Positions 802 to 16,273 of a stretch of 16,273 nt of DNA are shown in pieces. The position numbers were made by a program, and so were the translations under genes. Position 1 is the first letter of the stretch; every line of letters starts with the position of its first letter. Source of the DNA: a virus (lineage: Duplodnaviria > Heunggongvirae > Uroviricota > Caudoviricetes); IMG/VR virus record IMGVR_UViG_2802429239_000001, positions 1 to 16,273 of that record, one strand, 5' to 3'. The notes below the pieces were generated by a model. That model worked only from the letters and a program-made list of their open reading frames with translations. It was not told the DNA's origin and did not search any database.

Positions 802-805
802 TGAT

Positions 806-1863: not shown

Positions 1864-1867
1864 ATTT

Positions 1868-3421: not shown

Positions 3422-3423
3422 AA

Positions 3424-4071: not shown

Positions 4072-5164
4072 TCGTGACGTCTATCGCGGTGCATTCCGCC
4101 CACTCATGCGCCTGCAAAATACGTTTTGTAGGCATATTCAGCGCAACGTCATAGACACCATCGACTTGTAACACTTTGATTATCTGGTTTGGCACAATGT
4201 CCCGTCCCAGATGTTTCTGCCGCTGTTGCGTCCAGAGGCTAATCGCTTTACGCGCCGCAGCCAGCGTTGTCTCCTGATCGGCAGTGGTAAACAGTGTGAG
4301 CTGCGCACGGATTTCATACGGCACCCTAACGGCGCATTTCGCACTTACTTTGTCGGTCAGCGGACGTTTTTTCTCCTTGCTAACCTCCAGTTCAATTTGC
4401 GCGAGCAGTTCCACGCCCGGCAGACCATTCAGCGTTAGCGGGTAGATCTCCACGCAGCCTTCTGGCAATCCTTCGTCCGGCCCCAGTACCGCGACGTCAA
4501 TAATCGACTGGCTTACGGAAAGCGTATGAAAGCGGTAGGCACCATAGCTGCCCGCATTGCTGAAACTTTCCGGCGCCAGTTGGATCCGCTGGCGTAGTGC
4601 GTCATCACTCTCTTCACCGCAGCCGCCGGTTGAGGCCGTCAGGTTGGTCACGCTGATATCGTAATAACCAATCCTGTCAACAAGGGCGCTAATCTGTGCA
4701 GGCTGCCAGCCATTGCCCGCTTCGCCTGTTGCCAGACTGGTGGCGGGAACGGCGATATGCAAACTTCCCGCCGGAATCAGAACATCTTCATCGGTAGCAA
4801 ACATCACGCTGTCAGAGGCGCTGGCACGTGTTCCTTGTGGAATTAGAATGTTATTTCGATTCTTACTGGCTACCGAAAACAGCAACGTGGTTTTTGCCGG
4901 TTGTGCAGGTAAGCGGTGAACGCCCACCAGCTCACCTAAATAATCCAGCATTGGCGCGCGGGAATACGCGACCAGATTCTGTTTCGCCGCTTCCTGAATG
5001 GCGATGCGTACAAGGTTTTCACGATAGGCAAAAAGGTCAATCAGCAACCGCTCGGCCTGTGCCGGGTAGAGCTTTTTGCCGCTGGCATCTTCATACTGCG
5101 CAATCATCTCGCTGGTAATTTGCGCAGGATCGCGGTCAATAAAATCGGGTTCGGCTATCGCCAT
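4049..5164 (-). CDS. Baseplate assembly protein J (gpJ-like)
   Basis: 371 aa with gpJ-type segments (LRQRIQLAPESFSNAGSYGAYRFHTLSVSQ..., ...GRDIVPNQIIKVLQVDGVYDV...). Overlaps the gpW-like gene upstream and the gpI-like gene downstream. Confidence 0.85.
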   Translation of the reverse strand: MAIAEPDFIDRDPAQITSEMIAQYEDASGKKLYPAQAERLLIDLFAYRENLVRIAIQEAAKQNLVAYSRAPMLDYLGELVGVHRLPAQPAKTTLLFSVASKNRNNILIPQGTRASASDSVMFATDEDVLIPAGSLHIAVPATSLATGEAGNGWQPAQISALVDRIGYYDISVTNLTASTGGCGEESDDALRQRIQLAPESFSNAGSYGAYRFHTLSVSQSIIDVAVLGPDEGLPEGCVEIYPLTLNGLPGVELLAQIELEVSKEKKRPLTDKVSAKCAVRVPYEIRAQLTLFTTADQETTLAAARKAISLWTQQRQKHLGRDIVPNQIIKVLQVDGVYDVALNMPTKRILQAHEWAECTAIDVTIAGVSDG

Positions 5165-5514
5165 AACACCTCCGTTGAGTTGATTACGCCGTCAGCGGCG
5201 CGCCATTGCACACGTAACGTCAGATGTTCCCCGTCGATTACCGGTGTCACCTTCAGCAACCGGCAGCGCGGTTCCCACTGGCGGATGGCCTCTACCGACT
5301 CCCTTACCACATGCGGAATCGCCCGCTCGATGGGATAATCGATGTAGTGCCACAAGTTGCTGCCAAACAGCGGTCTGTGGGGATCACTGCCGCGCGGTGT
5401 GCGCAGAATGATGTGTATTGCCTGGTGAATATCATCCAGTCCGCAGACGTATTCTTCAGGCCGCTGCAAGGCTGGTTGCCAGTGCAGCGTAGAGGGGCGT
5501 GTTGTCGTGTTCAT
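5155..5514 (-). CDS. Baseplate wedge protein, gpW / gp25-like
   Basis: 119 aa; segment LDDIHQAIHIILRTPRGSDPHRPLFGSNLWHYIDYP matches the gpW/gp25 core (cf. P2 W LEHISQSIGDILRTPVGSRVMRRDYGSLLASMIDQP from memory). Confidence 0.8.
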   Translation of the reverse strand: MNTTTRPSTLHWQPALQRPEEYVCGLDDIHQAIHIILRTPRGSDPHRPLFGSNLWHYIDYPIERAIPHVVRESVEAIRQWEPRCRLLKVTPVIDGEHLTLRVQWRAADGVINSTEVLWR

Positions 5515-5575
5515 GAGGGTATTTTCGCCCTGAACAGGCGGCGGGGATATTAAAGCGATTTAAAAAACTGATTGA

Positions 5576-5607
5576 TTAAAAAGAGAAAACCCGCCATCAG
5601 GCGGGTT
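5576..5607 (-). terminator. Intrinsic-terminator-like hairpin plus U-tract between the gpV and gpW genes
   Basis: On the minus-strand transcript, just after the gpV stop (5613..5615): AACCCGCC-UGAU-GGCGGGUU (8-bp GC-rich stem, 4-nt loop) followed directly by UUCUCUUUUU. Confidence 0.55.
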
Positions 5608-5612
5608 AAACG

Positions 5613-6314
5613 TCAGTGTGAATGGTGGTTGGAGTTGCCACCGCTGTCCTGCAATGTGCCGCTGGCCTGAACGTTACCAATCACATTAACATTGCCAGTT
5701 ATCGTGGCGGCGTTGCCGATGCCTCCACTTCCTGCCATGCCACCAAGCCAGGTGAGTTTTTTCATCACCGTGACGTTGCCGGTAAAGGTGCTCATGGGCG
5801 CATCTACCGTCACTGCTGCCGCTTTAACATCGACCTTACTGGCTTCAATGCTGACATCGGTGGCTTTCACATCAACAGTGTCGGAAGTCACGGTGACGTG
5901 TTGGGCTTTAACCTCAACGTTGGGCGATGTCAGGCTGGTACGGTCAATAACCTCAATCACGATTTTTTCGATGCCACCATTAATCGTAAGCTGGTGGGTG
6001 CTGCGGTCATATTCAAACGCTGCGCCATCAGAAAACTGGACATAGCGTTTGTCGCGCGATGCTACTGGCGCGGTATCTACCGTTGAATATACTGCGCCCA
6101 GCACCACGCCATCTTCACCGTTATCATCCAGCAGAACTTCCACCTGTTCGCCCATATCCGGTAGCCAGTAATCCTTATTGTCCTGAGAATTGCGCTGCAG
6201 CACCGCAAGCCAGTTACTCTTCAGATTGTCACACTCTGGTAGCGTGACCCGCACCCGAACGCTGGTTTCGTCAATATCGCTGATAATCCCCGTTTGCCGG
6301 GTTACTCCTTTCAT
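5613..6314 (-). CDS. Baseplate spike/assembly protein V (gpV-like)
   Basis: 233 aa. N-terminal OB-like region with a GEQV motif and the FxDGAxxEYD segment parallels P2 gpV; a repetitive V.V.-rich beta-helix-like section follows; C-terminus ends in a His cluster (NHHSH). Confidence 0.85.
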   Translation of the reverse strand: MKGVTRQTGIISDIDETSVRVRVTLPECDNLKSNWLAVLQRNSQDNKDYWLPDMGEQVEVLLDDNGEDGVVLGAVYSTVDTAPVASRDKRYVQFSDGAAFEYDRSTHQLTINGGIEKIVIEVIDRTSLTSPNVEVKAQHVTVTSDTVDVKATDVSIEASKVDVKAAAVTVDAPMSTFTGNVTVMKKLTWLGGMAGSGGIGNAATITGNVNVIGNVQASGTLQDSGGNSNHHSH

Positions 6315-6323
6315 ATTGCCTCC

Positions 6324-7364
6324 TTACTGGCTGGTCGCTGGCCCGCGTGAAACGTCGATTTCAGTGGTATAGCCGCTGCGCACAAAACTGTGAGTAGATT
6401 TATCAATCAGCCACTGACCGGAAAGCACACCAAAATCGGTTAGCTCGATTTTATTGCCTGCCGTCAGTTCCGGGCAGCCCATCATCCTGAGCGTTCCGGT
6501 TTGTTGATATTCGTTGTGGCTGTCGAGCGCGGCGTTGGCCTTTGCCTGTGCCGCGCCAACGTCCGGCGCCCGACTGTTCAGTTTCAGCGTGTCGGCACTG
6601 GTGCCGACTCCACGGGCAGACGGCTTTTGCTGGCTGTCGTGAGTGTAGATAACCAGTTCTTTTTTCTTACTATTTTGATGCTGTACGGTGGCGTTTTTGT
6701 AGATGCGGTTAATGGTATCTTTGAAGGTGAAATGCGAAACGTCTTTGCGGTCGATCTTTTTCACCGGCGCCAGGCAGCGCAGCGTGGGTAAATGCGAAAA
6801 AATCAGTTCTTTGGTGGTCACCTTTACCGCATAGCCATATTCGCTGGCCAGGCGCTTGAGAAATCCGACATCGGTTTCGCCGTACTGTGTCACCCGGTCA
6901 ATCGTCAGCGGCTCGATTTTGCCCACCAGCGTCAGGCCGTGAGTTTGCGCGATACGGCTGGCGATGGCTGAAAGCGTTGTCTCTTCAAAGCCCTGACTGT
7001 TACGGGTGCGCAGCGCCTGATTGACGGAAGTGGCGATGCCATCAATATTTACCGTGGAAGGTGGTGCTGAAATGTCAATTTTATCAATGATATATTGACC
7101 ACAATCGAGCAGTTTTTCCCCCTGATAACCCATATGTAGCGCCAGCGTATCGCCTTTGCCGGGATACCACTCTTTTATCCAGCGTCCATCGGTGTCATCC
7201 AGTGTGATCGCGATGGTATCCGACTCGTTTTTAATACTGTCCTGGTAACTGATGCTGGTGACATAAGGCGTGATGTCATAAGTGATATCTTTATGCCCAT
7301 ACCACAGGGTAAAAATGGGCGCGAGCGTGGCAAAGACGCCGCCAGTTACGCTTATCTCAGCCAT
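6324..7364 (-). CDS. Tail/baseplate hub protein, gpD-like (Mu gp44-like)
   Basis: 346 aa, in the gpD position immediately upstream of the gpV gene; overall pattern (ITLDDTDG..., tail ...GQWLIDKSTHSF...GYTTEIDV) is consistent with the phage late control gene D family. Confidence 0.8.
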   Translation of the reverse strand: MAEISVTGGVFATLAPIFTLWYGHKDITYDITPYVTSISYQDSIKNESDTIAITLDDTDGRWIKEWYPGKGDTLALHMGYQGEKLLDCGQYIIDKIDISAPPSTVNIDGIATSVNQALRTRNSQGFEETTLSAIASRIAQTHGLTLVGKIEPLTIDRVTQYGETDVGFLKRLASEYGYAVKVTTKELIFSHLPTLRCLAPVKKIDRKDVSHFTFKDTINRIYKNATVQHQNSKKKELVIYTHDSQQKPSARGVGTSADTLKLNSRAPDVGAAQAKANAALDSHNEYQQTGTLRMMGCPELTAGNKIELTDFGVLSGQWLIDKSTHSFVRSGYTTEIDVSRGPATSQ

Positions 7365-7561
7365 GGTGGGATCTCCGATACGGTCTTGTTGACGGTAATG
7401 ACCGGAATAATGAGCTGAATACCGGCAGGCAGTACCGGGTAAATGGCGACATGTGGATTGGCGGCGATAATGCGTTCATAAGCCAGTGCATCACCGTAGT
7501 AATGCCATGCCAGGTTATCCCAGCGTTCGCCGTCGGTGGTGATATGTTCAAGGTATCGCAT
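7352..7561 (-). CDS. Tail protein X (gpX-like, LysM-like fold)
   Basis: 69 aa; GERWDNLAWHYYGDALAYERIIAANPHVAIYPVLPAGIQLIIP parallels P2 gpX (GDTLDAICVRYYGRTEGVVETVLAANPGLAELGAVLPHGTAVELP, from memory). Confidence 0.75.
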   Translation of the reverse strand: MRYLEHITTDGERWDNLAWHYYGDALAYERIIAANPHVAIYPVLPAGIQLIIPVITVNKTVSEIPPWLR

Positions 7562-8514
7562 TACCAGCTCCTCGTAATGGTCGCGGCAGCGAGCTGAGTC
7601 ACTGCGGGAGTGGTTTGCTGTACCGTTGTACGCGCCTGCTCAACCAACGTTGTGGCTTTATCGAAAGTTGCTTCGGCGATGGCGCTGGTGATGCTGCCAA
7701 ACAGTTCTTGTGCATGGTCAACCAGTGTCCCGGCGTCTTTGGCGCAGTCGCGGATACCCGGCAGGCTACCCAGCAATGCTTTAATCTGCGCCGACAACGC
7801 TTTTGGTAATCCTGCCAGCGTTTGCAGATCCATCGGCTGTTTAAACAGGGTTTCGATGGCATCGATAGTCTTTTTCAACGACTTAATTATCTTTTCACAC
7901 TTTTCTTTTAACGCTTTGGCCTCTTTAATCAGTGCTTTGACCTTTGCCACTGTTTTTTTAATATCTTCAATGGATTGCGCCAGTTCATCGAGCATCTCTT
8001 TGGCTTTGCGCATACCTTCTTCAATGGCGTTCAATATCTGATCCAACCAGGACTCCACCTTGTCCGGAAAATCGCTCGCCTTTTCGTCAATATTAGGCTC
8101 CTGGGTGGTAATCGCCGGGGGCAGGAGTGGGTTTTTCGGATCGCCGGTATACTCCTGGAGCGACATTGTTCCGCTTTGGGCAATCACATTGCCCCAGGGA
8201 TCGGTGTGCTGGTGAGTGGCGGTTAACTCTGTAATTACAAACCAGCCGCGATAATCACCGTTGCCAAACACCAGCGCCATTGCTTTGTGGGCAAGCATGG
8301 CTTCACGCAGTCGATTCAGCTCTGTTGTGGGTTGGCAAAACTGGCTGTGCAGGAAAAATTCCAGCGCCAGCATGTCCAGCTTATCGCCAATAAACTGCAC
8401 GCCAGGTTTGCCTTCAATACGGGCATGTGTGGCGTAATCCACGCCCATTGTGCTTTTAAAGCCATCCCAGAATGTGACAACTTTAAATTCAATCTCACCT
8501 AAAACGGCATACAT
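7561..8514 (-). CDS. gpU-like tail protein with long C-terminal coiled-coil extension (Mu gp43 / DNA-circulation-N-like)
   Basis: 317 aa. The N-terminal ~130 aa follow the gpU pattern (MYAVLGEIEF..., FGNGDYRGWFVITELTATHQ). The C-terminal ~150 aa are K/E/A-rich heptad-like helix (EEGMRKAKEMLDELAQSIEDIKKTVAKVKALIKEAKALKEKCEKIIKSLKKTIDAIE). Start overlaps the tape measure stop by 1 nt. Confidence 0.7.
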   Translation of the reverse strand: MYAVLGEIEFKVVTFWDGFKSTMGVDYATHARIEGKPGVQFIGDKLDMLALEFFLHSQFCQPTTELNRLREAMLAHKAMALVFGNGDYRGWFVITELTATHQHTDPWGNVIAQSGTMSLQEYTGDPKNPLLPPAITTQEPNIDEKASDFPDKVESWLDQILNAIEEGMRKAKEMLDELAQSIEDIKKTVAKVKALIKEAKALKEKCEKIIKSLKKTIDAIETLFKQPMDLQTLAGLPKALSAQIKALLGSLPGIRDCAKDAGTLVDHAQELFGSITSAIAEATFDKATTLVEQARTTVQQTTPAVTQLAAATITRSW

Positions 8515-10874
8515 CAGGCATACCCCCGGCGCTGTTGCTGCGCCATTACGTCGTTAATCATTCTTTCCAGTTCGCGTTTACTCATCGTCAATACGTTCTG
8601 AATGTCTTTAGTGGTGTTTTGTCCGTTACCCTGCACGGTAATTTGTGGCGAAAAATTCACCTGGACTTTTCCTGGGGAACGGGAGGGTAGCGTCGCCGGT
8701 TTGGTTACGGATTTACCTGGTAAAGAGGCCGACGCGGGTTTTGCCACTGGCGCCGATGACGGCGTTGTCGTTTTGCTGGATGGCGCGAGTTGTTTGCCCA
8801 CAGGCGGCGTTAAAAGCGCACCGGCAACGCCTGGAACAACGGTCGCGGGGGAGACTGATGCGGTATTAGTCGTGCCTGTAACAGTCGCAGCCGATGCTTC
8901 TGTGCCGATCCCCATTGTGGCTTTTAGCCAGTCTGGCATGGCGTTTTTGACCTGATCAATAATGCCTTTCAGAGCGGGGAAAGCATTCATTATGCCGTCG
9001 GCCAGGCTACCCAGTATATTGCTGCCGAACTCGCTAAAACTCGCAGGCATCTCAACACCAAACCAATTCATCACACCGGAAAAGGCGCTGTAGAACAGCC
9101 CCAGTGGCGACCAGTCGAGAATCAACCGGCTAATACCTGCAATGCCACCGTCAAAGGCCGTGGTAATACGTTTCCAGATGGCGGAAAAGAACCTGGTGAT
9201 AGGTTCCCAGTTGCGATAAATCAGATAAGCCGCGCCCGCAATCGCAGTGATGACCAGACCAATGGGATTCATCAGTAGCACCCGGCCTAGTGAGAGAACG
9301 GTCCGACCAACCAGTTTCAATGCTCCGCTCAGGCCACGACCAAGCAGTTGCGTTAGCCATTTTGCGCCGCCACCCAATGACTTAACCGCCGATAGCACCT
9401 TACTCGCTGCGCCTCCGGGCGCCAGACTTGCCCTGACTTTCAGGAAGATATCGACCAGACGAATAAACGGCGAGGCGATGAAGTTCGCGCCCAGCTTTAA
9501 AACATTCAGCGCACCGTTAAACAGCCAAATCGCCCCGACGATTTTCGCAATGTTTTGCACTAGTGCCGGGTGTTCGCGTAGCCAGGCGCTGAACTGGCGA
9601 ATAACCGGCGCAAGGCTTTGCGCCAGCTCGCCAATCGCCGGCATAAGCTGCAAGCCAATGCTGAGCCATAAATCATTTAACGCCAGTTGTAACGCTTTAG
9701 TCTGTTCAATGGGCGAAGCCATTTGCGCAGAAAAGTCGGCATCAATCAGATTCTTGCTGGTGGCTTGCATGGCAGAGGCTTTTAGCTGGCGATACTCTTC
9801 CATATTCGCCAGCATAGGGGCCAGGAATTCCACCGTTTGCGCATCGCCGAACATTTCGCCCAGATTAAACTGCGTCACCATCGATTGCAGCGCAGTGCTG
9901 CGGGCAGATAAATCTTCAATCTGCATGGTGCGTTTGAAGGTATCGAGGATCGCCGGATTCATCTTCTCAAGCTGCATTTGCACGATATGAGTCATAGCTT
10001 CGCTAACACCCATACCGTTTTGCTGATGCTCAAGCAGAGAACCTTGCAGATCGACGCCCTGGCTGGCGAACCAGCTATCGGTTTTTTTCGAAAAGGTGGT
10101 TTGTAGAAAATGGTCGAAATTCTCCGCCGCTGCACTGGCGCTGGCACCGTTTTTCATGGCGATCTGCATGGTGGCGGTCAGTTCAGCCATACCTTCCAGA
10201 CCCTGAGCGCCGGTTTTACCTGCAAATTTCTCTATCCACTGCGTTTGTTCGGCAATGGCAGGCCCACCGCTTTTGGTAACGCTGTACATCATGTTTTGCG
10301 CAGTGTGGAAATTTTCCGGGGCAATATTCAGTCGATCATGAGTCGCGAGCGCGGCTTTCGCCCATGTTTCGGCGCTGTCGCGCGTGGCGGTGGCGGCTTT
10401 GGCGATCTCCGGCATATAGCGGTTGAGATCCTGCAAGGACGATATGTTGCCTTCAACTAAGGTCAGAGCGGCGGACTGTAACGTGGTCTGCTGCTGGTTA
10501 AAATCCATACTCCAGTCGCGCAGATTCAGGCTGAGCGTCTCGCGAGTGGCATCACTCATCCCACCTTTGGTCGCCATATTGACCATATTGTCCTGAAACT
10601 CATACGGCAACTTCCAGTCGGGGGCTTCAACATTGAATACTTTGCTAAATTGCCCGGCAAATGTTTGGGTTTTCTCCATCAGATTAGCGCGGCTGCGGCT
10701 ATTTTCCTCCAGGCGGAGAGCGGAATCGGCAAGTCGCTGCGTTAGTTTGATAACTGTCGCTTGCTGAGTAGAGAGAGTTAACAATGTTCTGGCGTTGAGT
10801 GAGCCGTAACGGGCTATTGCCTGCGTCAACGTCTCATTACGCGCCTGAAGCTGGGTAATAATATCGTTGGCCAA
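8514..10874 (-). CDS. Tail tape measure protein
   Basis: 786 aa, the largest ORF, located between the chaperone and gpU-like genes. Helical N-terminal half, hydrophobic/Gly-rich central segments and a Pro/Ser/Thr/Ala-rich low-complexity C-terminal region. Apparent TTG start with GAGA-type RBS upstream; the real start could be internal. Confidence 0.85.
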   Translation of the reverse strand: MANDIITQLQARNETLTQAIARYGSLNARTLLTLSTQQATVIKLTQRLADSALRLEENSRSRANLMEKTQTFAGQFSKVFNVEAPDWKLPYEFQDNMVNMATKGGMSDATRETLSLNLRDWSMDFNQQQTTLQSAALTLVEGNISSLQDLNRYMPEIAKAATATRDSAETWAKAALATHDRLNIAPENFHTAQNMMYSVTKSGGPAIAEQTQWIEKFAGKTGAQGLEGMAELTATMQIAMKNGASASAAAENFDHFLQTTFSKKTDSWFASQGVDLQGSLLEHQQNGMGVSEAMTHIVQMQLEKMNPAILDTFKRTMQIEDLSARSTALQSMVTQFNLGEMFGDAQTVEFLAPMLANMEEYRQLKASAMQATSKNLIDADFSAQMASPIEQTKALQLALNDLWLSIGLQLMPAIGELAQSLAPVIRQFSAWLREHPALVQNIAKIVGAIWLFNGALNVLKLGANFIASPFIRLVDIFLKVRASLAPGGAASKVLSAVKSLGGGAKWLTQLLGRGLSGALKLVGRTVLSLGRVLLMNPIGLVITAIAGAAYLIYRNWEPITRFFSAIWKRITTAFDGGIAGISRLILDWSPLGLFYSAFSGVMNWFGVEMPASFSEFGSNILGSLADGIMNAFPALKGIIDQVKNAMPDWLKATMGIGTEASAATVTGTTNTASVSPATVVPGVAGALLTPPVGKQLAPSSKTTTPSSAPVAKPASASLPGKSVTKPATLPSRSPGKVQVNFSPQITVQGNGQNTTKDIQNVLTMSKRELERMINDVMAQQQRRGYA

Positions 10875-10965
10875 AATTGTTTCTCTTTAAATATTGATAA
10901 TGGCCCGCTGGTTATTTTTCTAAAAAAAAGGGGCAGGGAAGAAATAAACCTGACGGGCTTGGGAA

Positions 10966-10990
10966 ACTCGCAGACATCAGGTCTGCGAGT
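10966..10990 (-). other. Perfect 10-bp inverted repeat (stem-loop) in the chaperone-tape measure intergenic gap
   Basis: ACTCGCAGAC-ATCAG-GTCTGCGAGT on the plus strand (10-bp stem, 5-nt loop). Not followed by a clean U-tract on either strand. Confidence 0.6.
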
Positions 10991-11064
10991 CATATTCGAT
11001 TTTTATTTGGGCGTTGGCTTCATCCAGCCAGTTGCTAAAGTCATCGACGGTAAGGGCGTCTATC

Positions 11065-11382
11065 TCACTGGGCGGAAAGCGAAACCATCTCGCCAGTAAC
11101 GCCATCGCTTGCCATAACAGTGGCGGATTCTGTAGCCACGCTAAGCATGGATTGAAATCGTTTCTGCAATGCCTGGTAATCCAGCAAATCCATTTCAGCT
11201 AAATCTTCTGGCACCAGTCCGGTCATTGCAGCCATTAGCGGTTCATCCCATTCTTCTGGTTTTTCGCTGATCCGGCGCGCGTTGCGCATATCTTTTACTT
11301 TCAGGCGACGTAATTGCAGAGTGTTAATTACGTCTCCCGCCGCTGAAGTAAACGGGAACTGTAAGGTATAATGTTCTTTCAT
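11065..11382 (-). CDS. Tail assembly chaperone (P2 gpE / Mu gp41-like)
   Basis: 105-aa acidic protein encoded between the tube and tape measure genes, the conserved position of the gpG/gpE-type chaperone. Good RBS context. Confidence 0.65.
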   Translation of the reverse strand: MKEHYTLQFPFTSAAGDVINTLQLRRLKVKDMRNARRISEKPEEWDEPLMAAMTGLVPEDLAEMDLLDYQALQKRFQSMLSVATESATVMASDGVTGEMVSLSAQ

Positions 11383-11409
11383 TTTGTATCCTTATTGGTC
11401 ATGCGGAAA

Positions 11410-11427
11410 TCGGGGCCGTAGCCCCGA
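11410..11427 (-). other. GC-rich stem-loop directly after the tail tube gene
   Basis: TCGGGGC-CGTA-GCCCCGA (7-bp stem, 4-nt loop) in the 50-bp gap between the tube stop and the chaperone start; followed on the minus strand by only a short UUUCC. Confidence 0.45.
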
Positions 11428-11432
11428 ATAAC

Positions 11433-11957
11433 TTAGCCACCGATGTTATTGCGATAGGTACTTAATTGATCCACGCCGTTAACGCGGAAAATATTCGCCA
11501 GGTAATCCAGTTCCAGCAGCGTTTCACCATCGACCACCTGTTTAATATAGGTACAACCAAAGGCGCTGCTGAATTCCGGGTTTTCATTCTGTTTAAATGT
11601 TCCCAATGGATTCTTTTTAAACATGACAGTCAAATGAGTGACTAACGCTAATTGATTCGCTTTCCCCTGGGAGTTATAGCAATCAATACTGGAGCGGCAC
11701 TGTAATGCTACCGCCTGCCACGGGTTTGCCGTTTTACGCATGACGTCCTGATAAAAGGAGTTCCATTTAATTTCCCCTTCCAGTTTATCGAAACCTGCCG
11801 GGAGTTCGATTTTGCCGACCATGCCCAGTGCTTTATGCTCCTGCATAATTAAACTGACATCCGGTAATTTAATTTCGGTTGCACGACCTAAAAGGTTATT
11901 ACCATCGAGATAAATATTGGCATTGGTAATACGGTTAATTTGAATTTTTCCAGCCAT
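11433..11957 (-). CDS. Tail tube protein (P2 FII / Mu M-like)
   Basis: 174 aa. N-terminal pattern and the C-terminal NGVDQLSTYRNNIGG parallel the P2 FII C-terminus (..NGVDRLEQHRRNIGL, from memory). Start overlaps the sheath stop by 1 nt. Confidence 0.85.
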   Translation of the reverse strand: MAGKIQINRITNANIYLDGNNLLGRATEIKLPDVSLIMQEHKALGMVGKIELPAGFDKLEGEIKWNSFYQDVMRKTANPWQAVALQCRSSIDCYNSQGKANQLALVTHLTVMFKKNPLGTFKQNENPEFSSAFGCTYIKQVVDGETLLELDYLANIFRVNGVDQLSTYRNNIGG

Positions 11958-13387
11958 TAGCTATTGCTCTCCAGAGAGACTAAATATTCAGAGGTAATTT
12001 CAGTTTCAAACGTCAGACGTTCCAGCGGCGGTGGCGGGGTGAATTTATAGCTCAGCAATAAATGCCCGGCACTGAGTTCGGTCGGTGAATTTCGCGCCGG
12101 ATCGTACCAGCACTCAAAGCCAAGCAGTGCGCCGTCGGCAATCAGCTTACGGCCCCAGGTATTTACCGACTCGGTCAGGGCATCAATTAGCGCCTGATTA
12201 ATCGGCATATCGATATACTGCTGGCTGAAATAACGGATCGACTCGTTAATCACATCACCCGTGCGGCGAACGTTTTCAAAGTTACGCATATGGGTCACGG
12301 TTGGCCATGCCGCAGTGCGGTTGCCCCATAAACGCAGACCAGAGCCGTAACTATTGAAAACTGTGGTAATGCCGTTTTCGTTGAGCTGATTCACTTCACT
12401 TTGCGGGTCATCAACCATTGCGGAAAGTGAACGTTCGATACCGATAATGCCCTGAATTTCCTGGTTTGAGTTGCTCCACCAGAAACCTTTCTCCAGGTCT
12501 ACTTTGGCACGCAGTCCGGCAGCGCGTGAAGATAGCGGTTCGAGAACTTCTTGGTTGGTTGAGCCGTCATAAACTTTGACGTGCGGATAGCACAAACGCG
12601 CACGGTCAGAACTGGTGTTGAAGTTGATTGCGCCTTTCGAGCCGCGACCAGCCAGTACCTGCTGGAATGTAGTACCGATTGGGGCGTCAATGTAGGCGAT
12701 AGCACCGAGTTTTTCCGCCTGAGCAATCAGTTCGGTGGTGACCGATTTTTGCGTACAGAAAACGGGAGCAAGCAGGATTTTGGCGTAGAAACCATACAGG
12801 TTATAGGTATCCTGTAGCAGTTTCATCCCCGTGCGATCGCCTGCGGTATTAACGGCGCCAATAATATCGGCTGCGGTAACTTTTGTTGGATCGGCCCATG
12901 AGTAATAGGCGCAAACTTTCGCTCCGGCAGGGATCTCAGTTTCTGCACGAGTGATTATTCCTGTTTGTTCATCAACATGAAACGCTGCGCTGCTATACGT
13001 AGTGGCTGATGTTGAAGAGGGTTTCAGGACGACATTGCGCACCGCACGATGAGCCAGTTTTGCCTGGTTGTTGGAATCAAAAGTGATACTCTCATTGCTG
13101 ATGCTGGAGCCATGTTTTGCCGGATCCAGTACGTTAATCACCACCACCGTACCGGCGCCGTGGTCATAAATCGCCTTCAGCGCCTGCGGGATAGTAAAGT
13201 TAGCCTGAGTCGAGCCAAACTGCGCGGCATCGCTTTCAGAAAGGCACAATGTTGGTTTGTTTACCGGACCGCATGGTGCACTACCGATTAAAGCGATTAC
13301 AGCGGATTTTACCGCTTTAACCGGGCGCGGACCGGTTTCAATTTCAATGGTTTCTACACCGTGCAGGTAATTAGCTGCCATGTACAA
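11957..13387 (-). CDS. Contractile tail sheath protein
   Basis: 476 aa, immediately upstream of the tube gene; size, position and N-terminal region (..GVETIEIETGPRPVKAVKSAVIALIGSAP..) are typical of Mu L / P2 FI-type sheath proteins. Confidence 0.85.
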   Translation of the reverse strand: MYMAANYLHGVETIEIETGPRPVKAVKSAVIALIGSAPCGPVNKPTLCLSESDAAQFGSTQANFTIPQALKAIYDHGAGTVVVINVLDPAKHGSSISNESITFDSNNQAKLAHRAVRNVVLKPSSTSATTYSSAAFHVDEQTGIITRAETEIPAGAKVCAYYSWADPTKVTAADIIGAVNTAGDRTGMKLLQDTYNLYGFYAKILLAPVFCTQKSVTTELIAQAEKLGAIAYIDAPIGTTFQQVLAGRGSKGAINFNTSSDRARLCYPHVKVYDGSTNQEVLEPLSSRAAGLRAKVDLEKGFWWSNSNQEIQGIIGIERSLSAMVDDPQSEVNQLNENGITTVFNSYGSGLRLWGNRTAAWPTVTHMRNFENVRRTGDVINESIRYFSQQYIDMPINQALIDALTESVNTWGRKLIADGALLGFECWYDPARNSPTELSAGHLLLSYKFTPPPPLERLTFETEITSEYLVSLESNS

Positions 13388-13568
13388 TTTCCTCTCCGTT
13401 ATTTTGTTCTTCCTGAGTGATGACAGGAGTCAGGTGATTGCGGGCAATCATGGTCATAACCCACTCGTTTTCTTCTGGCAGATCAATTTCACTGTTCGGC
13501 CACAATAAGATTTCTTGTCCGTCGGCAAGGGTGACGCCGCTTGCCGGGCCGTTGTAGATGTATTTCAT
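13371..13568 (-). CDS. Small conserved tail-operon protein, function unknown
   Basis: 65-aa ORF coupled by overlap to both neighbours, in the position of the small protein that precedes the sheath gene in Mu-like tail operons. Confidence 0.45.
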   Translation of the reverse strand: MKYIYNGPASGVTLADGQEILLWPNSEIDLPEENEWVMTMIARNHLTPVITQEEQNNGEEIVHGS

Positions 13569-14020
13569 TCAGTTTCCTCGTAATTAACTTCAGTAAGCAG
13601 GGTAAGGTCCGTGCTTTCCCGTTTTGCGATAAACAGCGATCTGGTCGCCATTTCCATGATGTAGCGGCAGAAACCACCGCTCTCGCCTGCATTGATTTCT
13701 GTTTCAAGCCAAAGAAGACGCTCGCAATCAGGAAGCTGGATCCCCCCCAATGCGCTGCGTATGCGATCCAGTGCGTTTAACGCGCCACAATTTTTGCCAA
13801 CAATAACGGTGGCAGTTAAACGGAGCGTTTGCTGTTGCACGAGGGCATCACTGCTTTCAGGCATGGCAAATAGAGAACCGCTATAATTAATAATCACTGT
13901 AACTTGCTGCGTCTGCGGAATATATTTATTGGCATCAACCGATGAAATAAATACGTCCATTTCGGGATTCTGTTCACGTAATCTGGTCACAACAGAATTA
14001 ATTACAGATAAAATTTCCAT
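13565..14020 (-). CDS. Putative tail completion/terminator-type protein, first gene of the tail operon (positional call)
   Basis: 151-aa ORF with an AAGGAA RBS about 9 nt upstream of the ATG; 4-nt overlap with the next gene. Contains a C7/G7 homopolymer at 13742..13748. Confidence 0.4.
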   Translation of the reverse strand: MEILSVINSVVTRLREQNPEMDVFISSVDANKYIPQTQQVTVIINYSGSLFAMPESSDALVQQQTLRLTATVIVGKNCGALNALDRIRSALGGIQLPDCERLLWLETEINAGESGGFCRYIMEMATRSLFIAKRESTDLTLLTEVNYEETE

Positions 14021-14126
14021 ATAGGGTGTTCCTTAATTACTGCTCACTTCGTTATCGTTGAAATGTATTCTGAAGCAGTGAAGGTGAAGAATCTTTTAAT
14101 GTGATTTAGAGAAAAAATTGAATGGC

Positions 14127-14162
14127 TATAAAAATCCCCACACTTACGTAAAGGTGGGGATG
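14127..14162 (-). terminator. Intrinsic-terminator-like hairpin after the lysis cassette
   Basis: On the minus-strand transcript, a few nt after the stop of the 104-aa gene: AUCCCCAC-(12-nt loop)-GUGGGGAU followed by UUUUUAUAG. Coordinates approximate to 1-2 nt. Confidence 0.5.
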
Positions 14163-14165
14163 TAT

Positions 14166-14480
14166 TTAATAGCTGCCACGTTGTAATAGCTCTATTTTGC
14201 TATATAAGGCATCCAGCTTTGCTTCTAATACTGCCTGGCCACGAAGATAATCTTCTCTGCGGACATAATGCAGCGGAAGCTCGGCACGAAATTCGAGAAA
14301 TTCTCTTTCCAGTTTCGACCAGCTTGTTTCTGATTCCCGGCGCGCGTTTTCCAGAGATTCAAAACGCTCATTAAGTCTTTTTTCAATTTGCGCTAACAGC
14401 AATTTTCCGGCAGCAAACATTAATCCAACGAAGGAAAGCATAAGGGAGATCACTTCCCAAAAATCGATACTGAGTTTCAT
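14166..14480 (-). CDS. Membrane-anchored coiled-coil protein, probable lysis accessory (i-spanin-like or releasin-like)
   Basis: 104 aa with one N-terminal transmembrane helix (VISLMLSFVGLMFAAGKLLLA) followed by a charged helical region; strong RBS (AGAGGGG); directly downstream of the transglycosylase gene. Confidence 0.5.
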   Translation of the reverse strand: MKLSIDFWEVISLMLSFVGLMFAAGKLLLAQIEKRLNERFESLENARRESETSWSKLEREFLEFRAELPLHYVRREDYLRGQAVLEAKLDALYSKIELLQRGSY

Positions 14481-14492
14481 CGGCCCCTCTGA

Positions 14493-15098
14493 TTAGTGAA
14501 GACAGCTTGCCTGCCCCCAGAGTAAGTAGCGGGCGGCATGTTGATAGAGGATCATCTTCGGATAGTGACGATTTTCTCGCCAGTTTGCGGCACTACGCCC
14601 GGCGTTGACGTGCTCAACATGACCAAACCAGATGGTGGCATCTAACCCTTTGGATGCGGCCAGTTTTTTATCCCGATTAACCCATCCCTGACCACCGTTA
14701 TAGGCGCTTAGGGTAAACGCCATACGCTGGCAGCCATTTTTCGCCGAGATGTTTTTCCACAAATGCTGGTCATATTGCACCAATGCGCGAATCGCCCAGG
14801 TTGGGTTATAGGGCTTGTTTTCACGTAGCTGTGGATACAACTGGCTTATCCATGTCGCTGTGGCAGGCATAAATTGCGCCATACCCTGTGCGCCGACGGG
14901 GGAACGCGCCATTGGCTGCCAGGCTGATTCCTGGTGCAACTGCCCGGCGAAGTCTGCCACCGGGGCGTTCAGTCCCCAGACTTCTCGTGCAGTTCGAATC
15001 AGTTCGTTTCGCCATGCCAGAGATGCTCGCGGCGGTTCAGATGCGTTAAGCGGGAAGAACGCGAACAGAGTAATTAGCGCGAGAAATTTTACCTGCAT
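14493..15098 (-). CDS. Soluble lytic transglycosylase (SLT domain) with signal peptide; probable endolysin
   Basis: SLT-type motifs ESAW, GAQGMAQFMP and SAYNGG. The track ORF extends to 15197, but the internal Met (MQVKFLALITLFAFFPLNA) starts a signal peptide and has an AGGA RBS, so the likely start is 15098. It lies 2 nt downstream of the holin-like gene stop. Confidence 0.8.
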   Translation of the reverse strand: MQVKFLALITLFAFFPLNASEPPRASLAWRNELIRTAREVWGLNAPVADFAGQLHQESAWQPMARSPVGAQGMAQFMPATATWISQLYPQLRENKPYNPTWAIRALVQYDQHLWKNISAKNGCQRMAFTLSAYNGGQGWVNRDKKLAASKGLDATIWFGHVEHVNAGRSAANWRENRHYPKMILYQHAARYLLWGQASCLH

Positions 15099-15100
15099 CA

Positions 15101-15388
15101 CTAAAGTCCTAACGCGACGGAAAGGCAGACGGCTGCAACGATGATAGCCCGACGAATCATTGCCGCCGCGCAGCATCGCGCCTCTTCCCAGGGGCAAAAT
15201 GAGTCAGGCCGCGCCCAGGGAAACAGACTGCGATCGAGCCAGTATCCCAGCACAGCGGCGAGCGAAACCAGACTTAGTTTATAAATGACAACCGGGATCT
15301 GTGCGGAAGATGTCCAGCCGATCGCGACAAACAGCGCGACGGAAGCGACCAGCCAGCCGGAAAGACGGGGAAAAGTGACTTTTTTCAT
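15101..15388 (-). CDS. Small multi-pass membrane protein, putative holin
   Basis: 95 aa with 2-3 predicted hydrophobic helices; strong RBS (AGGAGA 7 nt upstream); first gene of the lysis cassette directly upstream of the transglycosylase. Confidence 0.5.
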   Translation of the reverse strand: MKKVTFPRLSGWLVASVALFVAIGWTSSAQIPVVIYKLSLVSLAAVLGYWLDRSLFPWARPDSFCPWEEARCCAAAMIRRAIIVAAVCLSVALGL

Positions 15389-15684
15389 ACGATATCTCCT
15401 GATAAGTGAGCGTTTAGTGTTGCCAGATCCCTCCAGTGAAGAATGAAAAAAGCTTTAATAAATAACTTTAAAAAATAGATCCTCTATAAATGAACATGCT
15501 TGCTAATAAATCCACCCATTAATAAAAGAGCAAAAGGTGTCCTGGAGAATAAGCGCGTCATTATGCAGGGAAAAGAGGATGGTGAATCGTAGGAATAGCC
15601 CATAGTCATTTGATTTTTAAAGTTTGTTTAAGAAAGTCAGCGACTGTGAGGGAAACGATCTTTTTACACTACAGGTAAAAATAA

Positions 15685-15704
15685 TACTGTATGCACATAC
15701 AGTA
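15685..15704. promoter_or_regulatory. LexA operator (SOS box)
   Basis: TACTGTATGCACATACAGTA is a perfect palindrome with CTGT-N8-ACAG, differing from the 20-mer consensus TACTGTATATATATACAGTA only in the central positions. Confidence 0.7.
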
Positions 15705-15713
15705 TCGTGTAAA
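15686..15713 (-). promoter_or_regulatory. Candidate leftward sigma70 promoter overlapping the LexA box
   Basis: On the minus strand: TTTACA (-35), 16-nt spacer, TACAGT (-10, inside the LexA box). Would transcribe toward the lysis and tail genes. Confidence 0.4.
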
Positions 15714-15725
15714 ATGATACTCCAG

Positions 15726-15756
15726 TTGACAAGAAACATAACGCAAACAATATATT
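15726..15756 (+). promoter_or_regulatory. Candidate rightward sigma70 promoter for the Mor/C-like activator gene
   Basis: Consensus -35 TTGACA, then 18-19 nt spacer to ATATAT/TATATT; about 20 bp downstream of the LexA box and about 170 bp upstream of the activator ATG. Confidence 0.4.
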
Positions 15757-15925
15757 TATTTTGTGAATTTATGACGTTCATTGATATTAAAAATTTATAT
15801 TTTTGGTGATTGTTTATTTGTTTGTTGAATGTATTGAGTAGCAGTAATGACAACTGCTTAGCGTATATCCGTGGTTTTACACGCATCGGGTCTTATACAG
15901 GATGCAAGATATATGGAGATGAAAA

Positions 15926-16273
15926 ATGATACGAAAATCAAAAGAGATGGCCCGGACACCGGAGATCATTAACGACCTGGCGTTTCATGCATCGCAAGTT
16001 CTGATTGAGAGCATCAATCTCGACAGTTCATCGGCGGAAAATGTGGGCTTTGCCATTGCCGACCGAATGATGCGTAACTGGGGTGGGCAAAGCATTTATT
16101 TCCCGAAAGGGATCTCCGGACGGGCGTCGGAGCGTGACTACCAAATCTATAGCGAGTGCGATGGTCGCAACTACGCCGAATTAGCGAAGAAATATAATCT
16201 GACGTTGCAATGGATTTATAAGATAGTGAAACGCGTACATGCGGAAAAGCAACAGCGCCGTAGTAATTCGTAA
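15926..16273 (+). CDS. Mor/C-family transcriptional activator (phage Mu middle/late activator family)
   Basis: 115 aa; GGQSIYFPKG...RDYQIYSECDGRNYAELAKKYNLTLQWIYKIVKR aligns with the Mu Mor C-terminal region (GGGQVYIPRG...RDLRIWNDFNGRNVSELTTRYGVTFNTVYKAIRR, from memory). GGAG RBS 8 nt upstream. Confidence 0.8.
   Translation: MIRKSKEMARTPEIINDLAFHASQVLIESINLDSSSAENVGFAIADRMMRNWGGQSIYFPKGISGRASERDYQIYSECDGRNYAELAKKYNLTLQWIYKIVKRVHAEKQQRRSNS

What the first reader, a model, noticed from the sequence alone, without database searches (positions are those of the whole stretch)
10875..11064. Unusual chaperone-tape measure junction: no canonical -1 slippery site, a +1-frame extension, a 10-bp hairpin and a TTG start
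Tail chaperones of this type usually yield a second, longer product by programmed frameshifting near their 3' end. Here the -1 frame closes 2 codons after the stop and I find no X_XXY_YYZ heptamer. The only frame open across the stop is +1, which runs through the last part of the chaperone gene and ~34 codons beyond (...DALTVDDFSNWLDEANAQIKIEYDSQT) and ends at a TGA in the loop of the perfect hairpin at 10966..10990. The tape measure then appears to start at TTG after a U8 run. This suggests a non-standard (+1 or -2) recoding event or a structured regulatory RNA.
Basis: partly seen in the sequence, partly recalled or inferred. Interest (0 to 1): 0.5.

Follow-up and report, generated by a model that had tools for sequence, protein, structure and literature searches.

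The report
Tail chaperone +1 frameshift site
The "gap" between a phage-tail chaperone gene and the tape-measure gene encodes, one base out of frame, the second half of a P2-type E+E' chaperone; ribosomes most likely reach it by slipping forward one base on a conserved CGA-UUU-C motif, an unannotated forward-slipping variant of a well-known phage trick.

Summary
There is no -1 heptamer. The +1 frame is open across the chaperone stop and ends at a TGA in the loop of a perfect 10-bp hairpin. The tape-measure gene starts at TTG. The +1 peptide is a homologue of P2 gpE' (hhalign 97.9%, E 6e-13).

In 119 related loci (Enterobacterales, Betaproteobacteria, BcepMu-like phages) E' is always in the +1 frame. 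Stop codons in different lineages bracket the shift to about 11 codons. The only invariant bases there are CGA_UUU_C, window 11160-11154 on the minus strand, about 90 nt upstream of the flagged interval. BcepMu-like relatives carry NCY_UUU_CGY instead, which matches the influenza PA-X motif.

Codon choice is frozen only at this site: TTT in 17 of 17 clusters and CGA in 13 of 14, while control Arg and Phe columns vary freely. Selection switches from the 0 frame to the +1 frame just downstream.

Best explanation: a programmed +1 slip of tRNA-Phe (UUU to UUC) gives a 134-aa E+E'. The hairpin is conserved but lies about 175 nt from the shift site, and its role is unknown. Nothing has been tested experimentally. 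I rate it a new variant of a known kind.

The parts
11065..11382 (-). Tail assembly chaperone, P2 gpE-like, 105 aa, 0 frame. The stop TGA is at 11067-11065.
   Evidence: ORF list. Pfam PF10109 Phage_TAC_7, E 6.8e-19. It lies between the tube gene (11957-11433) and the tape-measure gene. PGAP calls it 'phage tail assembly protein'.
11154..11160 (-). Proposed +1 frameshift site CGA_UUU_C (codons R75 and F76 plus the next base).
   Evidence: TTT_C is present at the homologous Phe codon in 119 of 119 loci. CGA precedes it in 100 of the first 107; the rest have CGG, or NCY with a following CGY. It is the only invariant stretch in the interval bracketed by lineage-specific stops. Codon choice is frozen here but not at control Arg and Phe columns. 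All three third positions of AAA CGA TTT are invariant in 63 distinct enteric sequences.
10977..11198 (-). Complete +1-frame ORF: 73 codons plus TGA. It overlaps the 3' 131 nt of the chaperone and extends 29 codons beyond its stop.
   Evidence: Translations. Pfam GpE hit at 19.8 bits, below the 23-bit cut-off. Profile-profile match to P2-type E' at 97.9%, E 6e-13.
10977..11153 (-). Part of the +1 ORF predicted to be translated after the shift: 58 codons, NPCLAWLQNPPLLWQAMALLARWFRFPPSEIDALTVDDFSNWLDEANAQIKIEYDSQT, plus the stop. With codons 1-76 it gives a 134-aa E+E'.
   Evidence: The fusion has a TAC_7 (5-78) plus GpE (93-127) architecture like P2 E+E' (7-85 plus 104-139). Variability moves to the third position of the +1 frame from about codon +6 onward.
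10965..10991 (-). Hairpin 1: a 10-bp perfect stem (10990-10981 / 10975-10966) plus a closing G-U pair. The loop CUGAU holds the E' stop codon.
   Evidence: Sequence. Folds. Kept in all 14 aligned Escherichia/Salmonella/Enterobacter-type sequences, with one compensatory pair (GC 10, AU 3, GU 1) and several G-U changes. Non-homologous hairpins at or around the E' stop occur in several other clades.
10903..10958 (-). Helix 2: GCCCGU 10958-10953 pairs with GCGGGC 10908-10903. It encloses a pyrimidine-rich loop that includes the U8 run at 10929-10922.
   Evidence: Predicted in the window and recovered independently in most of 14 homologous sequences, with G-C to G-U changes. No consensus terminator or promoter here and no Rfam family.
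8514..10874 (-). Tape-measure protein gene, 786 aa, TTG start at 10874-10872 preceded by GAGAAA.
   Evidence: ORF list. Pfam PhageMin_Tail. PGAP uses the same start. ATTTTGGCCAACGA with TTG is invariant in 24 distinct sequences.

Best explanation
The interval holds the 3' part of an unannotated E' coding segment. This is the C-terminal extension of a P2-type E/E+E' tail assembly chaperone pair, here within a tail-only (tailocin-like) gene cluster.

Most ribosomes translate the chaperone in frame and stop at 11065, giving a 105-aa E. A minority shift +1 within the heptanucleotide CGA_UUU_C (11160-11154). The most likely event is that peptidyl-tRNA-Phe on UUU re-pairs with the overlapping UUC. 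The flanking CGA, read through an I:A wobble by tRNA-Arg(ICG), would act as a context enhancer. Shifted ribosomes continue for 58 codons to the TGA at 10979-10977, giving a 134-aa E+E' with a TAC_7 domain, a linker and a GpE domain.

By analogy with lambda G/GT and P2 E/E+E', both proteins would bind the tape-measure protein, and the rare long form would recruit the tube protein.

Shown: the frame relationship, the homology, the conservation, the bracketing of the site and the frozen codons.

Inferred: that a ribosomal shift actually occurs, its exact codon, the role of CGA, its efficiency, and the function of the products.

The conserved hairpin at the E' stop and the helix after it are not part of the shift signal. 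My low-confidence guess is that, together with the invariant TTG start, they lower or tune expression of the tape-measure and downstream genes.
For: 1. Homology. The +1 peptide matches Pfam GpE: 19.4-19.8 bits for the window peptide and 39.2 bits for the Conchiformibius homologue L024. A profile of 12 +1 peptides matches a profile of -1-frame E' peptides from P2, Mana and a Pasteurella phage at 97.9%, E 6e-13. PGAP names the 42-aa tail of this ORF 'GpE family phage tail protein' in one E. coli genome.

2. Frame. E' is in the +1 frame in all 107 loci of the first set and in 12 further BcepMu-like loci. It is never in the -1 frame.

3. Bracketing. In Betaproteobacterial loci the +1 frame opens only 3 codons before the UUU. 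In L019, L058, L059 and L110 the 0 frame stops 8-9 codons after it. In L019 the stop is TGA versus GGA in L020, a change that is synonymous in the +1 frame.

4. Invariance. TTT_C is present in 119 of 119 loci. CGA precedes it in 100 of 107.

5. Codon controls. Among 17 clusters below 80% identity (minimum 31%), the site shows TTT 17/17 and CGA 13, CGG 1. A control conserved Arg column shows CGC 8, CGT 6, CGA 2, CGG 1, and a control Phe column shows TTT 5, TTC 9. GC-rich relatives use TTC for their other Phe codons.

6. Selection switch. Upstream of the UUU, diversity peaks at position 3 of the 0 frame (0.37 against 0.19 and 0.12). From about codon +6 it peaks at position 3 of the +1 frame (0.28 against 0.14 and 0.12), already inside the overlap.

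7. Position. The site lies at the C-terminal edge of the TAC_7 domain, as does P2's GGT_TTT_TTG -1 site.

8. Precedent.
- UCC_UUU_CGU is the influenza PA-X +1 site (PMC3498833).
- UUU_CGN is the amalgavirus +1 motif (PMC5052127).
- CGA can replace GCG in the Ty3 +1 site, and CGA_AAG -1 sites involve I:A apposition (PMC5009743).
- Tail chaperones use -1, -2 or +1 shifts in different phages (PMC5009743; PMC10885494).
Against: - There are no expression data of any kind.
- The 0-frame A-site codon after UUU (CAA or CAG in enterics, CUG in Betaproteobacteria, CGC in Burkholderia phages) is not obviously slow.
- No Shine-Dalgarno-like element is conserved upstream.
- The region around and 3' of the site shows no significant structure (z = -1.4). 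The efficiency may therefore be low, and the enhancer role of CGA is conjecture.
- Codons +1 to +5 after the site are poorly constrained in both frames. Selection alone does not pin the site. The bracketing assumes that the site is positionally conserved and that lineages with early 0-frame stops are functional.
- A Ty3-like variant gives the same frame and cannot be excluded: out-of-frame decoding of GAU while CGA waits in the A site, which would give ...K-D-F... instead of ...K-R-F....
- Many of the 119 loci are close relatives. Independent support comes from about 17 sequence clusters.
Confidence: 0.75

Rival explanations
1. E' is a separate small protein (42 aa) initiated at the ATG at 11105 in the +1 frame, as PGAP annotates it in some genomes. 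No recoding is involved.
For: An ATG-initiated 42-aa ORF exists at 11105..10977. RefSeq annotates the equivalent ORF as 'GpE family phage tail protein' WP_015674804.1 in E. coli Z226-1.
Against: The Met codon is absent in Pectobacterium (..KAQALLARWF), in Betaproteobacteria (..GAGLLARWF..GQSLLARWF) and in BcepMu-like loci. There is no Shine-Dalgarno sequence before it. +1-frame purifying selection and homology to P2 E' (alignment from residue ~10 of the post-shift peptide) both extend upstream of the Met. In P2 the homologous segment is made only as a fusion. Only 1 of the 20 E. coli records listed carries this annotation.
Confidence: 0.07
2. The shift occurs near the chaperone stop at CUU_UCC (11079-11074). 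This would be a prfB-like +1 slip of tRNA-Leu from CUU to UUU.
For: CUU_U is an in-phase, known +1-prone pattern and is present in the window. The +1 frame is open there.
Against: The A-site codon is UCC, not a stop, and there is no upstream Shine-Dalgarno-like element. The codon is GUU in Betaproteobacterial relatives (0-frame ..VVPVSAE). In L019, L058, L059, L110 and L064 the 0 frame ends 8-15 codons after the UUU, well before this position. A shift here would leave the conserved +1 residues W..LW..LLARWFRF untranslated, yet these are under purifying selection and align with P2 E'.
Confidence: 0.03
3. A Mu-like -2 ribosomal frameshift reaches the same frame.
For: -2 and +1 lead to the same frame. 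Mu gp41 belongs to the same Pfam family description, and Mu is reported to use -2 (PMC5009743; PMC2628397). In Mu the +1/-2 frame opens over CGG_GGG_CGA, a run of five G.
Against: The window's overlap has no homopolymer of 5 or more and no dinucleotide repeat that would let a tRNA re-pair 2 nt upstream. tRNA-Phe moved back 2 nt from UUU would face GAU. The conserved motif fits +1 re-pairing (UUU to UUC) exactly.
Confidence: 0.03
4. The flagged interval is mainly a structured regulatory or stabilising RNA: hairpin 1, helix 2 and a CU-rich loop control the step-down in expression from sheath/tube/chaperone to tape measure. This is complementary to the frameshift, not exclusive of it.
For: z = -4.0 for the 151-nt intergenic RNA. 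Hairpin 1 is kept in all 14 aligned enteric sequences with one compensatory pair. Helix 2 is recovered in most of them. Unrelated hairpins sit on or just after the E' stop in several other clades. The tape-measure TTG start and weak Shine-Dalgarno sequence are invariant.
Against: The 5' arm of hairpin 1 is coding (..DSQ), so part of its conservation reflects protein constraint. There is little covariation. No U-tract follows either stem, so it is not a canonical terminator. There is no Rfam match. The hairpin is weak or absent in Pectobacterium.
Confidence: 0.35
5. Transcriptional slippage, or a sequencing or assembly error, creates the apparent frame change.
For: In-frame E-E' fusion proteins exist in databases (P0031 and P0034, 134 aa).
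Against: There is no homopolymer run in the overlap for RNA polymerase slippage. The out-of-frame arrangement is identical in 119 independent loci, including 200 complete E. coli genomes. The fusion allele is a 1-nt deletion about 25 nt downstream of the site and occurs in assemblies with fragmented neighbouring genes.
Confidence: 0.01

Closest known systems
Bacteriophage P2 E / E+E' tail chaperone pair (-1 frameshift at T_TTT_TTG)
   Same: Same two protein domains (TAC_7, then GpE after a linker of about 17-20 residues). Same position between the tube and tape-measure genes. The shift site is on a Phe UUU codon at the C-terminal edge of the TAC_7 domain.
   Different: The direction is +1, not -1. 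The motif is CGA_UUU_C, not GGU_UUU_UUG. E' ends about 100 nt before the tape-measure start instead of overlapping it. The 0-frame tail after the site is long (29 codons) and poorly constrained.
Phage Mu gp41 (-2 frameshift) and lambda G/GT (-1)
   Same: Same logic: a tail assembly chaperone yields two N-terminally identical proteins from overlapping frames just upstream of the tape-measure gene. Mu's extension is likewise in the +1/-2 frame.
   Different: Mu slips on a G5 run (CGG_GGG_CGA), and none is present here. Mu's extension shows no evident GpE-like motif; this was judged only by eye from the translation and was not tested against the GpE profile. Lambda uses a canonical -1 heptamer (my own knowledge).
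UUU_C-type +1 frameshift sites: influenza A PA-X (UCC_UUU_CGU) and plant amalgaviruses (UUU_CGN)
   Same: In-phase UUU followed by C allows tRNA-Phe to re-pair with UUC. BcepMu-like and some metagenomic relatives carry UCC/UCU/GCC/ACC_UUU_CGC/CGU, the same motif.
   Different: Those are eukaryotic viruses, where CGN is thought to be slow to decode. In the window the following codon is CAA, and an Arg CGA codon precedes the UUU instead. The hosts are bacteria in which CGC/CGU are common codons (my own knowledge).
Bacterial prfB (RF2) +1 frameshift, CUU_UGA with upstream Shine-Dalgarno-like element
   Same: A +1 slip of a single P-site tRNA onto an overlapping cognate or near-cognate codon in a bacterial ribosome (my own knowledge; mentioned in PMC10885494).
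   Different: There is no stop codon in the A site, no conserved Shine-Dalgarno-like stimulator, and no autoregulatory logic.
CGA-context frameshift sites (B. subtilis cdd A_CGA_AAG, IS1222 G_CGA_AAG, yeast Ty3 variants with CGA)
   Same: A CGA codon, decoded with I:A wobble apposition, lies immediately 5' of the codon where the frame changes (PMC5009743).
   Different: The bacterial examples are -1 shifts on A_AAG. Ty3 is a yeast +1 shift without re-pairing. None involves UUU_C.

Membership tests
Tail assembly chaperone with programmed frameshift (lambda G/GT, P2 E/E+E' class) | Gene lies between the major tail/tube gene and the tape-measure gene. | tested here: met
   Tube 11957-11433, chaperone 11382-11065, tape measure 10874-8514.
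Tail assembly chaperone with programmed frameshift (lambda G/GT, P2 E/E+E' class) | A second ORF in another frame overlaps the 3' end of the chaperone gene and extends towards the tape-measure gene. | tested here: met
   +1 ORF 11198-10977: 131 nt of overlap and 29 codons beyond the stop. Conserved in 119 loci.
Tail assembly chaperone with programmed frameshift (lambda G/GT, P2 E/E+E' class) | Two proteins with a common N-terminus are actually made, in a fixed ratio. | not testable with these tools
   No proteomic or ribosome-profiling data are available.
P2 E/E+E' protein family (Pfam PF10109 + PF06528) | N-terminal Phage_TAC_7 domain. | tested here: met
   68.1 bits against a cut-off of 25.
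P2 E/E+E' protein family (Pfam PF10109 + PF06528) | C-terminal GpE domain in the extension. | tested here: met
   The Pfam hit is below threshold for the window (19.4-19.8 bits against 23). The profile-profile match to P2-type E' is 97.9%, E 6e-13. Homologue L024 scores 39.2 bits.
P2-type -1 frameshift signal | In-phase X_XXY_YYZ heptamer (T_TTT_TTG) with the extension in the -1 frame. | tested here: not met
   No such heptamer in any phase. The -1 frame closes 2 codons after the stop.
Mu-type -2 frameshift signal | A run or repeat that allows re-pairing 2 nt upstream (G5 in Mu), with the extension in the -2/+1 frame. | tested here: not met
   The frame relation is met, but the overlap has no run of 5 or more and no repeat. 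Mu's G5 was seen in L029.
UUU_C-type +1 frameshift signal (PA-X / amalgavirus-like) | In-phase UUU followed by C at a conserved position, with the +1 ORF open. | tested here: met
   119 of 119 loci. TTT in 17 of 17 clusters against 5 of 14 at a control Phe column.
UUU_C-type +1 frameshift signal (PA-X / amalgavirus-like) | Slow-to-decode CGN codon in the A site after UUU. | tested here: not met
   The window has CAA. CGC/CGU follows UUU only in the BcepMu-like and related class. Decoding rates were not tested.
prfB-type +1 frameshift signal | CUU_U slip at an in-frame stop codon, with a Shine-Dalgarno-like element 3 nt upstream. | tested here: not met
   The CUU_U at codon 102 is followed by CC, not by a stop. 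There is no Shine-Dalgarno-like element, and the pattern is not conserved.
Intrinsic (Rho-independent) terminator, for the hairpin | GC-rich stem followed directly by a U-tract. | tested here: not met
   The scan finds none on the minus strand in 10700-11500. The stem is followed by UUUCCCAAG.
Any curated RNA family (Rfam 15) | Covariance-model match in 10700-11500. | tested here: not met
   No match up to E = 1.

The most novel reading that the evidence does not exclude
CGA_UUU_C, with its sister form NCY_UUU_CGY, may be a previously undescribed +1 frameshift signal of Proteobacterial tail modules that needs no separate stimulator. Its key determinant would be a codon read by tRNA-Arg(ICG) immediately flanking a UUU_C slip codon. 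In addition, the conserved hairpin with the stop codon in its loop, together with helix 2, might couple the arrival of the rare frameshifted ribosomes to opening of the TTG-initiated tape-measure gene. That would match tape-measure synthesis to E+E' synthesis.
Probability: 0.25. Interest if true: 0.75.

Novelty: new variant of a known kind. Interest (0 to 1): 0.55.

Why it matters
Programmed +1 frameshifting is rare in bacteria, and no general motif is recognised for it (PMC10885494). This case is phylogenetically deep, spanning about 17 sequence clusters and two proteobacterial classes. It has a sharply defined 7-nt motif, and it sits in a 16-kb tail-only cluster present in about 4% of complete E. 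coli genomes, so it can be tested directly in E. coli.

It shows that one homologous chaperone module (TAC_7 + GpE) has been re-solved by evolution at the same domain boundary, using -1 (P2), +1 (this family) and, in the more distant Mu, -2.

It also exposes a systematic annotation gap. RefSeq either omits E' or calls it a free-standing 42-aa protein. The BcepMu record annotates a different, probably incorrect, slippage.

If the CGA/CGY flanking rule holds, it would link tRNA-Arg(ICG) wobble decoding to frame maintenance in bacteria.

Tried and rejected
- Canonical -1 heptamers and homopolymer runs in the chaperone gene: none found. This rejects a -1 shift, a Mu-like -2 shift and transcriptional slippage.
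- Slip on AAA_C (codon 74), the only other in-phase homotriplet in the +1-open window: the Lys codon is absent or different (AAG, ACA, GAG...) in other clades, and re-pairing would be poor.
- Conserved Shine-Dalgarno-like stimulator upstream: AAGGAG is seen only in a few Betaproteobacterial loci.
- Stimulatory structure around or 3' of the site: z = -1.4, not significant.
- Rfam search of 10700-11500: nothing.
- Promoter/terminator scan: nothing on the minus strand.
- NCBIfam scan of E, E' and the fusion: no meaningful hit.
- Database fusion proteins (P0002, P0009, P0031, P0034...) as clues to the natural junction: the junctions differ, and the one checked at DNA level (P0034) is a 1-nt deletion allele lying in assemblies with fragmented neighbouring genes.
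- RNAalifold on a MAFFT alignment missed helix 2 because of misalignment. Single-sequence folds were used instead, so no formal covariation count was made for helix 2.
- Literature searches found no description of a +1 shift in this E/E' family. Xu et al. 2004, Christie et al. 2002 and Summer et al. 2004 are not in the held library, so prior description there cannot be excluded.
Full report
**1. Observation**

All genes of interest are on the minus strand. The order is sheath (13387-11957), tube (11957-11433), a 105-aa chaperone (11382-11065; Pfam Phage_TAC_7, 68 bits), a 190-nt apparent gap, and then a 786-aa tape-measure gene starting at TTG 10874.

- The -1 frame closes two codons after the chaperone stop.
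- The chaperone gene contains no XXXYYYZ heptamer in any phase, and no homopolymer of 5 or more within the overlap.
- The +1 frame is open from 11198 to a TGA at 10979-10977.
- The TGA lies in the 5-nt loop of a perfect 10-bp hairpin at 10990-10966.
- A U8 run lies at 10929-10922.

The description is therefore confirmed.

**2. What the +1 ORF is**

- Its C-terminal half hits Pfam Phage_P2_GpE at 19.4-19.8 bits, below the 23-bit cut-off.
- The homologous +1 peptide from a Conchiformibius genome (L024) scores 39.2 bits.
- A profile of twelve +1 peptides from different clades matches a profile of the -1-frame E' peptides of P2, Burkholderia phage Mana and a Pasteurella phage with 97.9% probability, E 6e-13, over 48 columns.
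- PGAP calls the last 42 codons 'GpE family phage tail protein' in one E. coli genome and leaves the ORF unannotated in others.

The gap therefore encodes the E' half of a P2-type E/E+E' chaperone, in the +1 frame rather than the -1 frame.

**3. Comparative evidence**

I collected 23 genome loci (Superficieibacter, Dryocola, Phytobacter, Lelliottia, Samsonia, Pectobacterium, Rivihabitans, Undibacterium, Pandoraea, Verminephrobacter, Conchiformibius and others). I added three phage records (PhiKM, KP12, BcepMu), 80 IMG/VR contigs and 12 further BcepMu-like contigs. Chaperone identity to the window ranges from 99% down to about 36%. E' is in the +1 frame in every one of the 119 loci.

**4. Locating the shift**

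- In the Betaproteobacterial loci a TGA closes the +1 frame three codons before a conserved Phe codon.
- In L019 the 0 frame stops eight codons after that Phe codon, and in L058, L059 and L110 nine codons after it. In L019 the stop is TGA where L020 has GGA, a change that is synonymous in the +1 frame.
- If the site is positionally conserved, it lies within about 11 codons.
- The only invariant nucleotides in that interval are CGA TTT C, at window 11160-11154 (codons R75 and F76).
- TTT_C is present in 119 of 119 loci. CGA precedes it in 100 of the first 107.
- The exceptions are CGG (one locus) and a second class, [U/G/A]C[C/U]_UUU_CG[C/U]. This class is found in BcepMu-like phages, in Conchiformibius and in some metagenomic contigs.

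**5. Codon-level controls**

Among 17 clusters below 80% identity (minimum 31%):

| Column | Codon counts |
|---|---|
| Phe at the site | TTT 17/17 |
| Arg at the site (14 clusters; the other 3 have Ser or Thr) | CGA 13, CGG 1 |
| Another universally conserved Arg | CGC 8, CGT 6, CGA 2, CGG 1 |
| Another conserved Phe | TTT 5, TTC 9 |

GC-rich relatives use TTC for their other Phe codons.

In 63 distinct enteric sequences the third positions of AAA CGA TTT are invariant, while the mean third-position diversity upstream is 0.37.

**6. Selection switches frame at the site**

Upstream of the site, diversity is highest at position 3 of the 0 frame (0.37 against 0.19 and 0.12). From about six codons downstream it is highest at position 3 of the +1 frame (0.28 against 0.14 and 0.12). 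This holds already inside the overlap, and the pattern continues beyond the chaperone stop. The 29-codon 0-frame tail is thus weakly constrained, and the +1 reading is the selected one. This includes residues upstream of the ATG that PGAP uses.

**7. Mechanism**

UUU followed by C lets tRNA-Phe (anticodon GAA) re-pair perfectly one base downstream.

- The second-class motif UCC_UUU_CGU/C is the experimentally defined +1 site of influenza PA-X (PMC3498833).
- It also matches the amalgavirus UUU_CGN motif (PMC5052127).
- From my own knowledge, UUU-pyrimidine sites are +1-prone in E. coli (Fu and Parker 1994; Schwartz and Curran 1997).
- CGA is read by tRNA-Arg(ICG) through a weak I:A apposition.
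- The Atkins et al. review notes that CGA is one of the few codons able to replace GCG in the Ty3 +1 site. It also notes that the bacterial -1 sites A_CGA_AAG and G_CGA_AAG involve the same apposition (PMC5009743).

I therefore propose a +1 slip on UUU_C, with the flanking Arg codon as context. The product would be 134 aa: residues 1-76 plus 58 new residues. Its architecture is TAC_7 (5-78) plus GpE (93-127), which mirrors P2 E+E' (7-85 plus 104-139). P2's own -1 site, GGT_TTT_TTG, falls on the Phe codon at the same domain edge.

A Ty3-like variant, with Asp-tRNA reading GAU while CGA is awaited, cannot be excluded. It would change one residue.

No conserved Shine-Dalgarno-like element or 3' structure was found. 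The efficiency is therefore unknown and may be low, as is usual for tail chaperones (lambda G:GT is about 30:1; PMC5009743).

**8. Rivals**

Details are in the rival entries.
- Mu's own site (CGG_GGG_CGA, a G5 run) is visible in the Mu record. It has no counterpart here.

**9. The hairpin, U8 and TTG**

- Hairpin 1 is kept in all 14 aligned Escherichia/Salmonella/Enterobacter-type sequences. It shows one compensatory pair and several G-U changes.
- Different hairpins sit on or right after the E' stop in several other clades. The hairpin is weak in Pectobacterium.
- A second helix (10958-10953 with 10908-10903) encloses the CU-rich tract with the U8 run. It recurs in most homologues.
- The TTG start is invariant.
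- There is no canonical terminator, promoter or Rfam family.
- These elements are too far from the shift site, about 175 nt, to stimulate it.
- My low-confidence inference is that they tune the expression step-down to the tape-measure gene.

**10. Context and novelty**

The window is a tail-only cluster: a Mor-type activator, holin, transglycosylase, lipoprotein, then sheath through tail fibre, with no head, terminase or integrase genes. In E. coli A37 it is flanked by core genes such as lysC. The gene order matches Pectobacterium carotovoricin (PMC13195805).

Tail chaperones are known to use -1, -2 or +1 shifts, so the kind is known. I found no description of a +1 shift, or of this motif, for the E/E' family, and RefSeq does not annotate it. 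I rate it a new variant of a known kind, with interest 0.55.

Noticed in passing
window 1-16273; L117 (E. coli A37, NZ_CP029327.1 329768-363267): The window is a tail-only cluster: a Mor-family activator, holin, lytic transglycosylase, lipoprotein, then sheath through tail fibre and fibre-assembly genes. It has no head, terminase, integrase or replication genes. In E. coli it sits between a nucleotidyltransferase/slipin pair and lysC. It looks like an R-type tailocin with the same gene order as Pectobacterium carotovoricin. 200 of 5426 complete E. coli genomes carry it at 90-97% identity.
   Followed up: partly
L113-L116 (protein P0034), equivalent to window ~11135-11120: An allele with a 1-nt deletion (GAATCCTCCCTGCTATGG versus GAATCCGCCACTGTTATGG) fuses E and E' in frame into a 134-aa protein. 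It is identical in four assemblies and keeps CGA TTT C. The neighbouring tail genes are fragmented in three of the four, so it may reflect a decaying cluster or error-prone assemblies.
   Followed up: partly
L027 (BcepMu NC_005882.1 23448-26546); L122-L132, L136: In BcepMu-like phages E' lies in the +1 frame of gp41, with [U/G]CC_UUU_CGC at the homologous Phe codon. The GenBank record instead annotates gp42 and a slippage product gp43, in frames that do not correspond to this arrangement.
   Followed up: partly
all related loci; window 11160-11152: The flanking codons are correlated. When CGA precedes UUU, the next codon is C[A/U]N. When NCY precedes it, the next codon is CGC or CGU. A codon read by tRNA-Arg(ICG) therefore always touches the UUU. 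This has not been tested with phylogenetic correction.
   Followed up: partly
L019, L058, L059, L110, L064, L060-L063: In several lineages the 0-frame chaperone is truncated 8-25 codons after the UUU, by stop codons that leave the +1 peptide intact. In L019 the change is TGA versus GGA, synonymous in the +1 frame. This suggests that the long 0-frame tail of E is dispensable.
   Followed up: partly
L112 (Pasteurella phage AFS-2018a, MH238466.1 21734-23647): An unannotated E' ORF lies in the -1 frame after the 'tail assembly protein'. Its peptide (..ADVAWWFGWNVSEIEQMTLDELSTWLEQANRQIK..) is close to the +1-frame E' of Conchiformibius L024. Closely related E' segments therefore occur in both frame arrangements.
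   Followed up: no
window 11010-11006 and 10876-10872: In the minimum-free-energy fold, CCAAA near the end of the E' coding sequence pairs with UUUGG, which overlaps the tape-measure TTG start. Only four pairs survive in the centroid structure. It is a weak lead for coupling E' translation to tape-measure initiation.
   Followed up: no
window 8514-10874 and homologues (24 distinct sequences): The tape-measure gene start context ATTTTGGCCAACGA, with TTG as initiator, is invariant across Escherichia, Salmonella, Enterobacter and Superficieibacter-type clusters, although the upstream intergenic sequence has diverged.
   Followed up: partly
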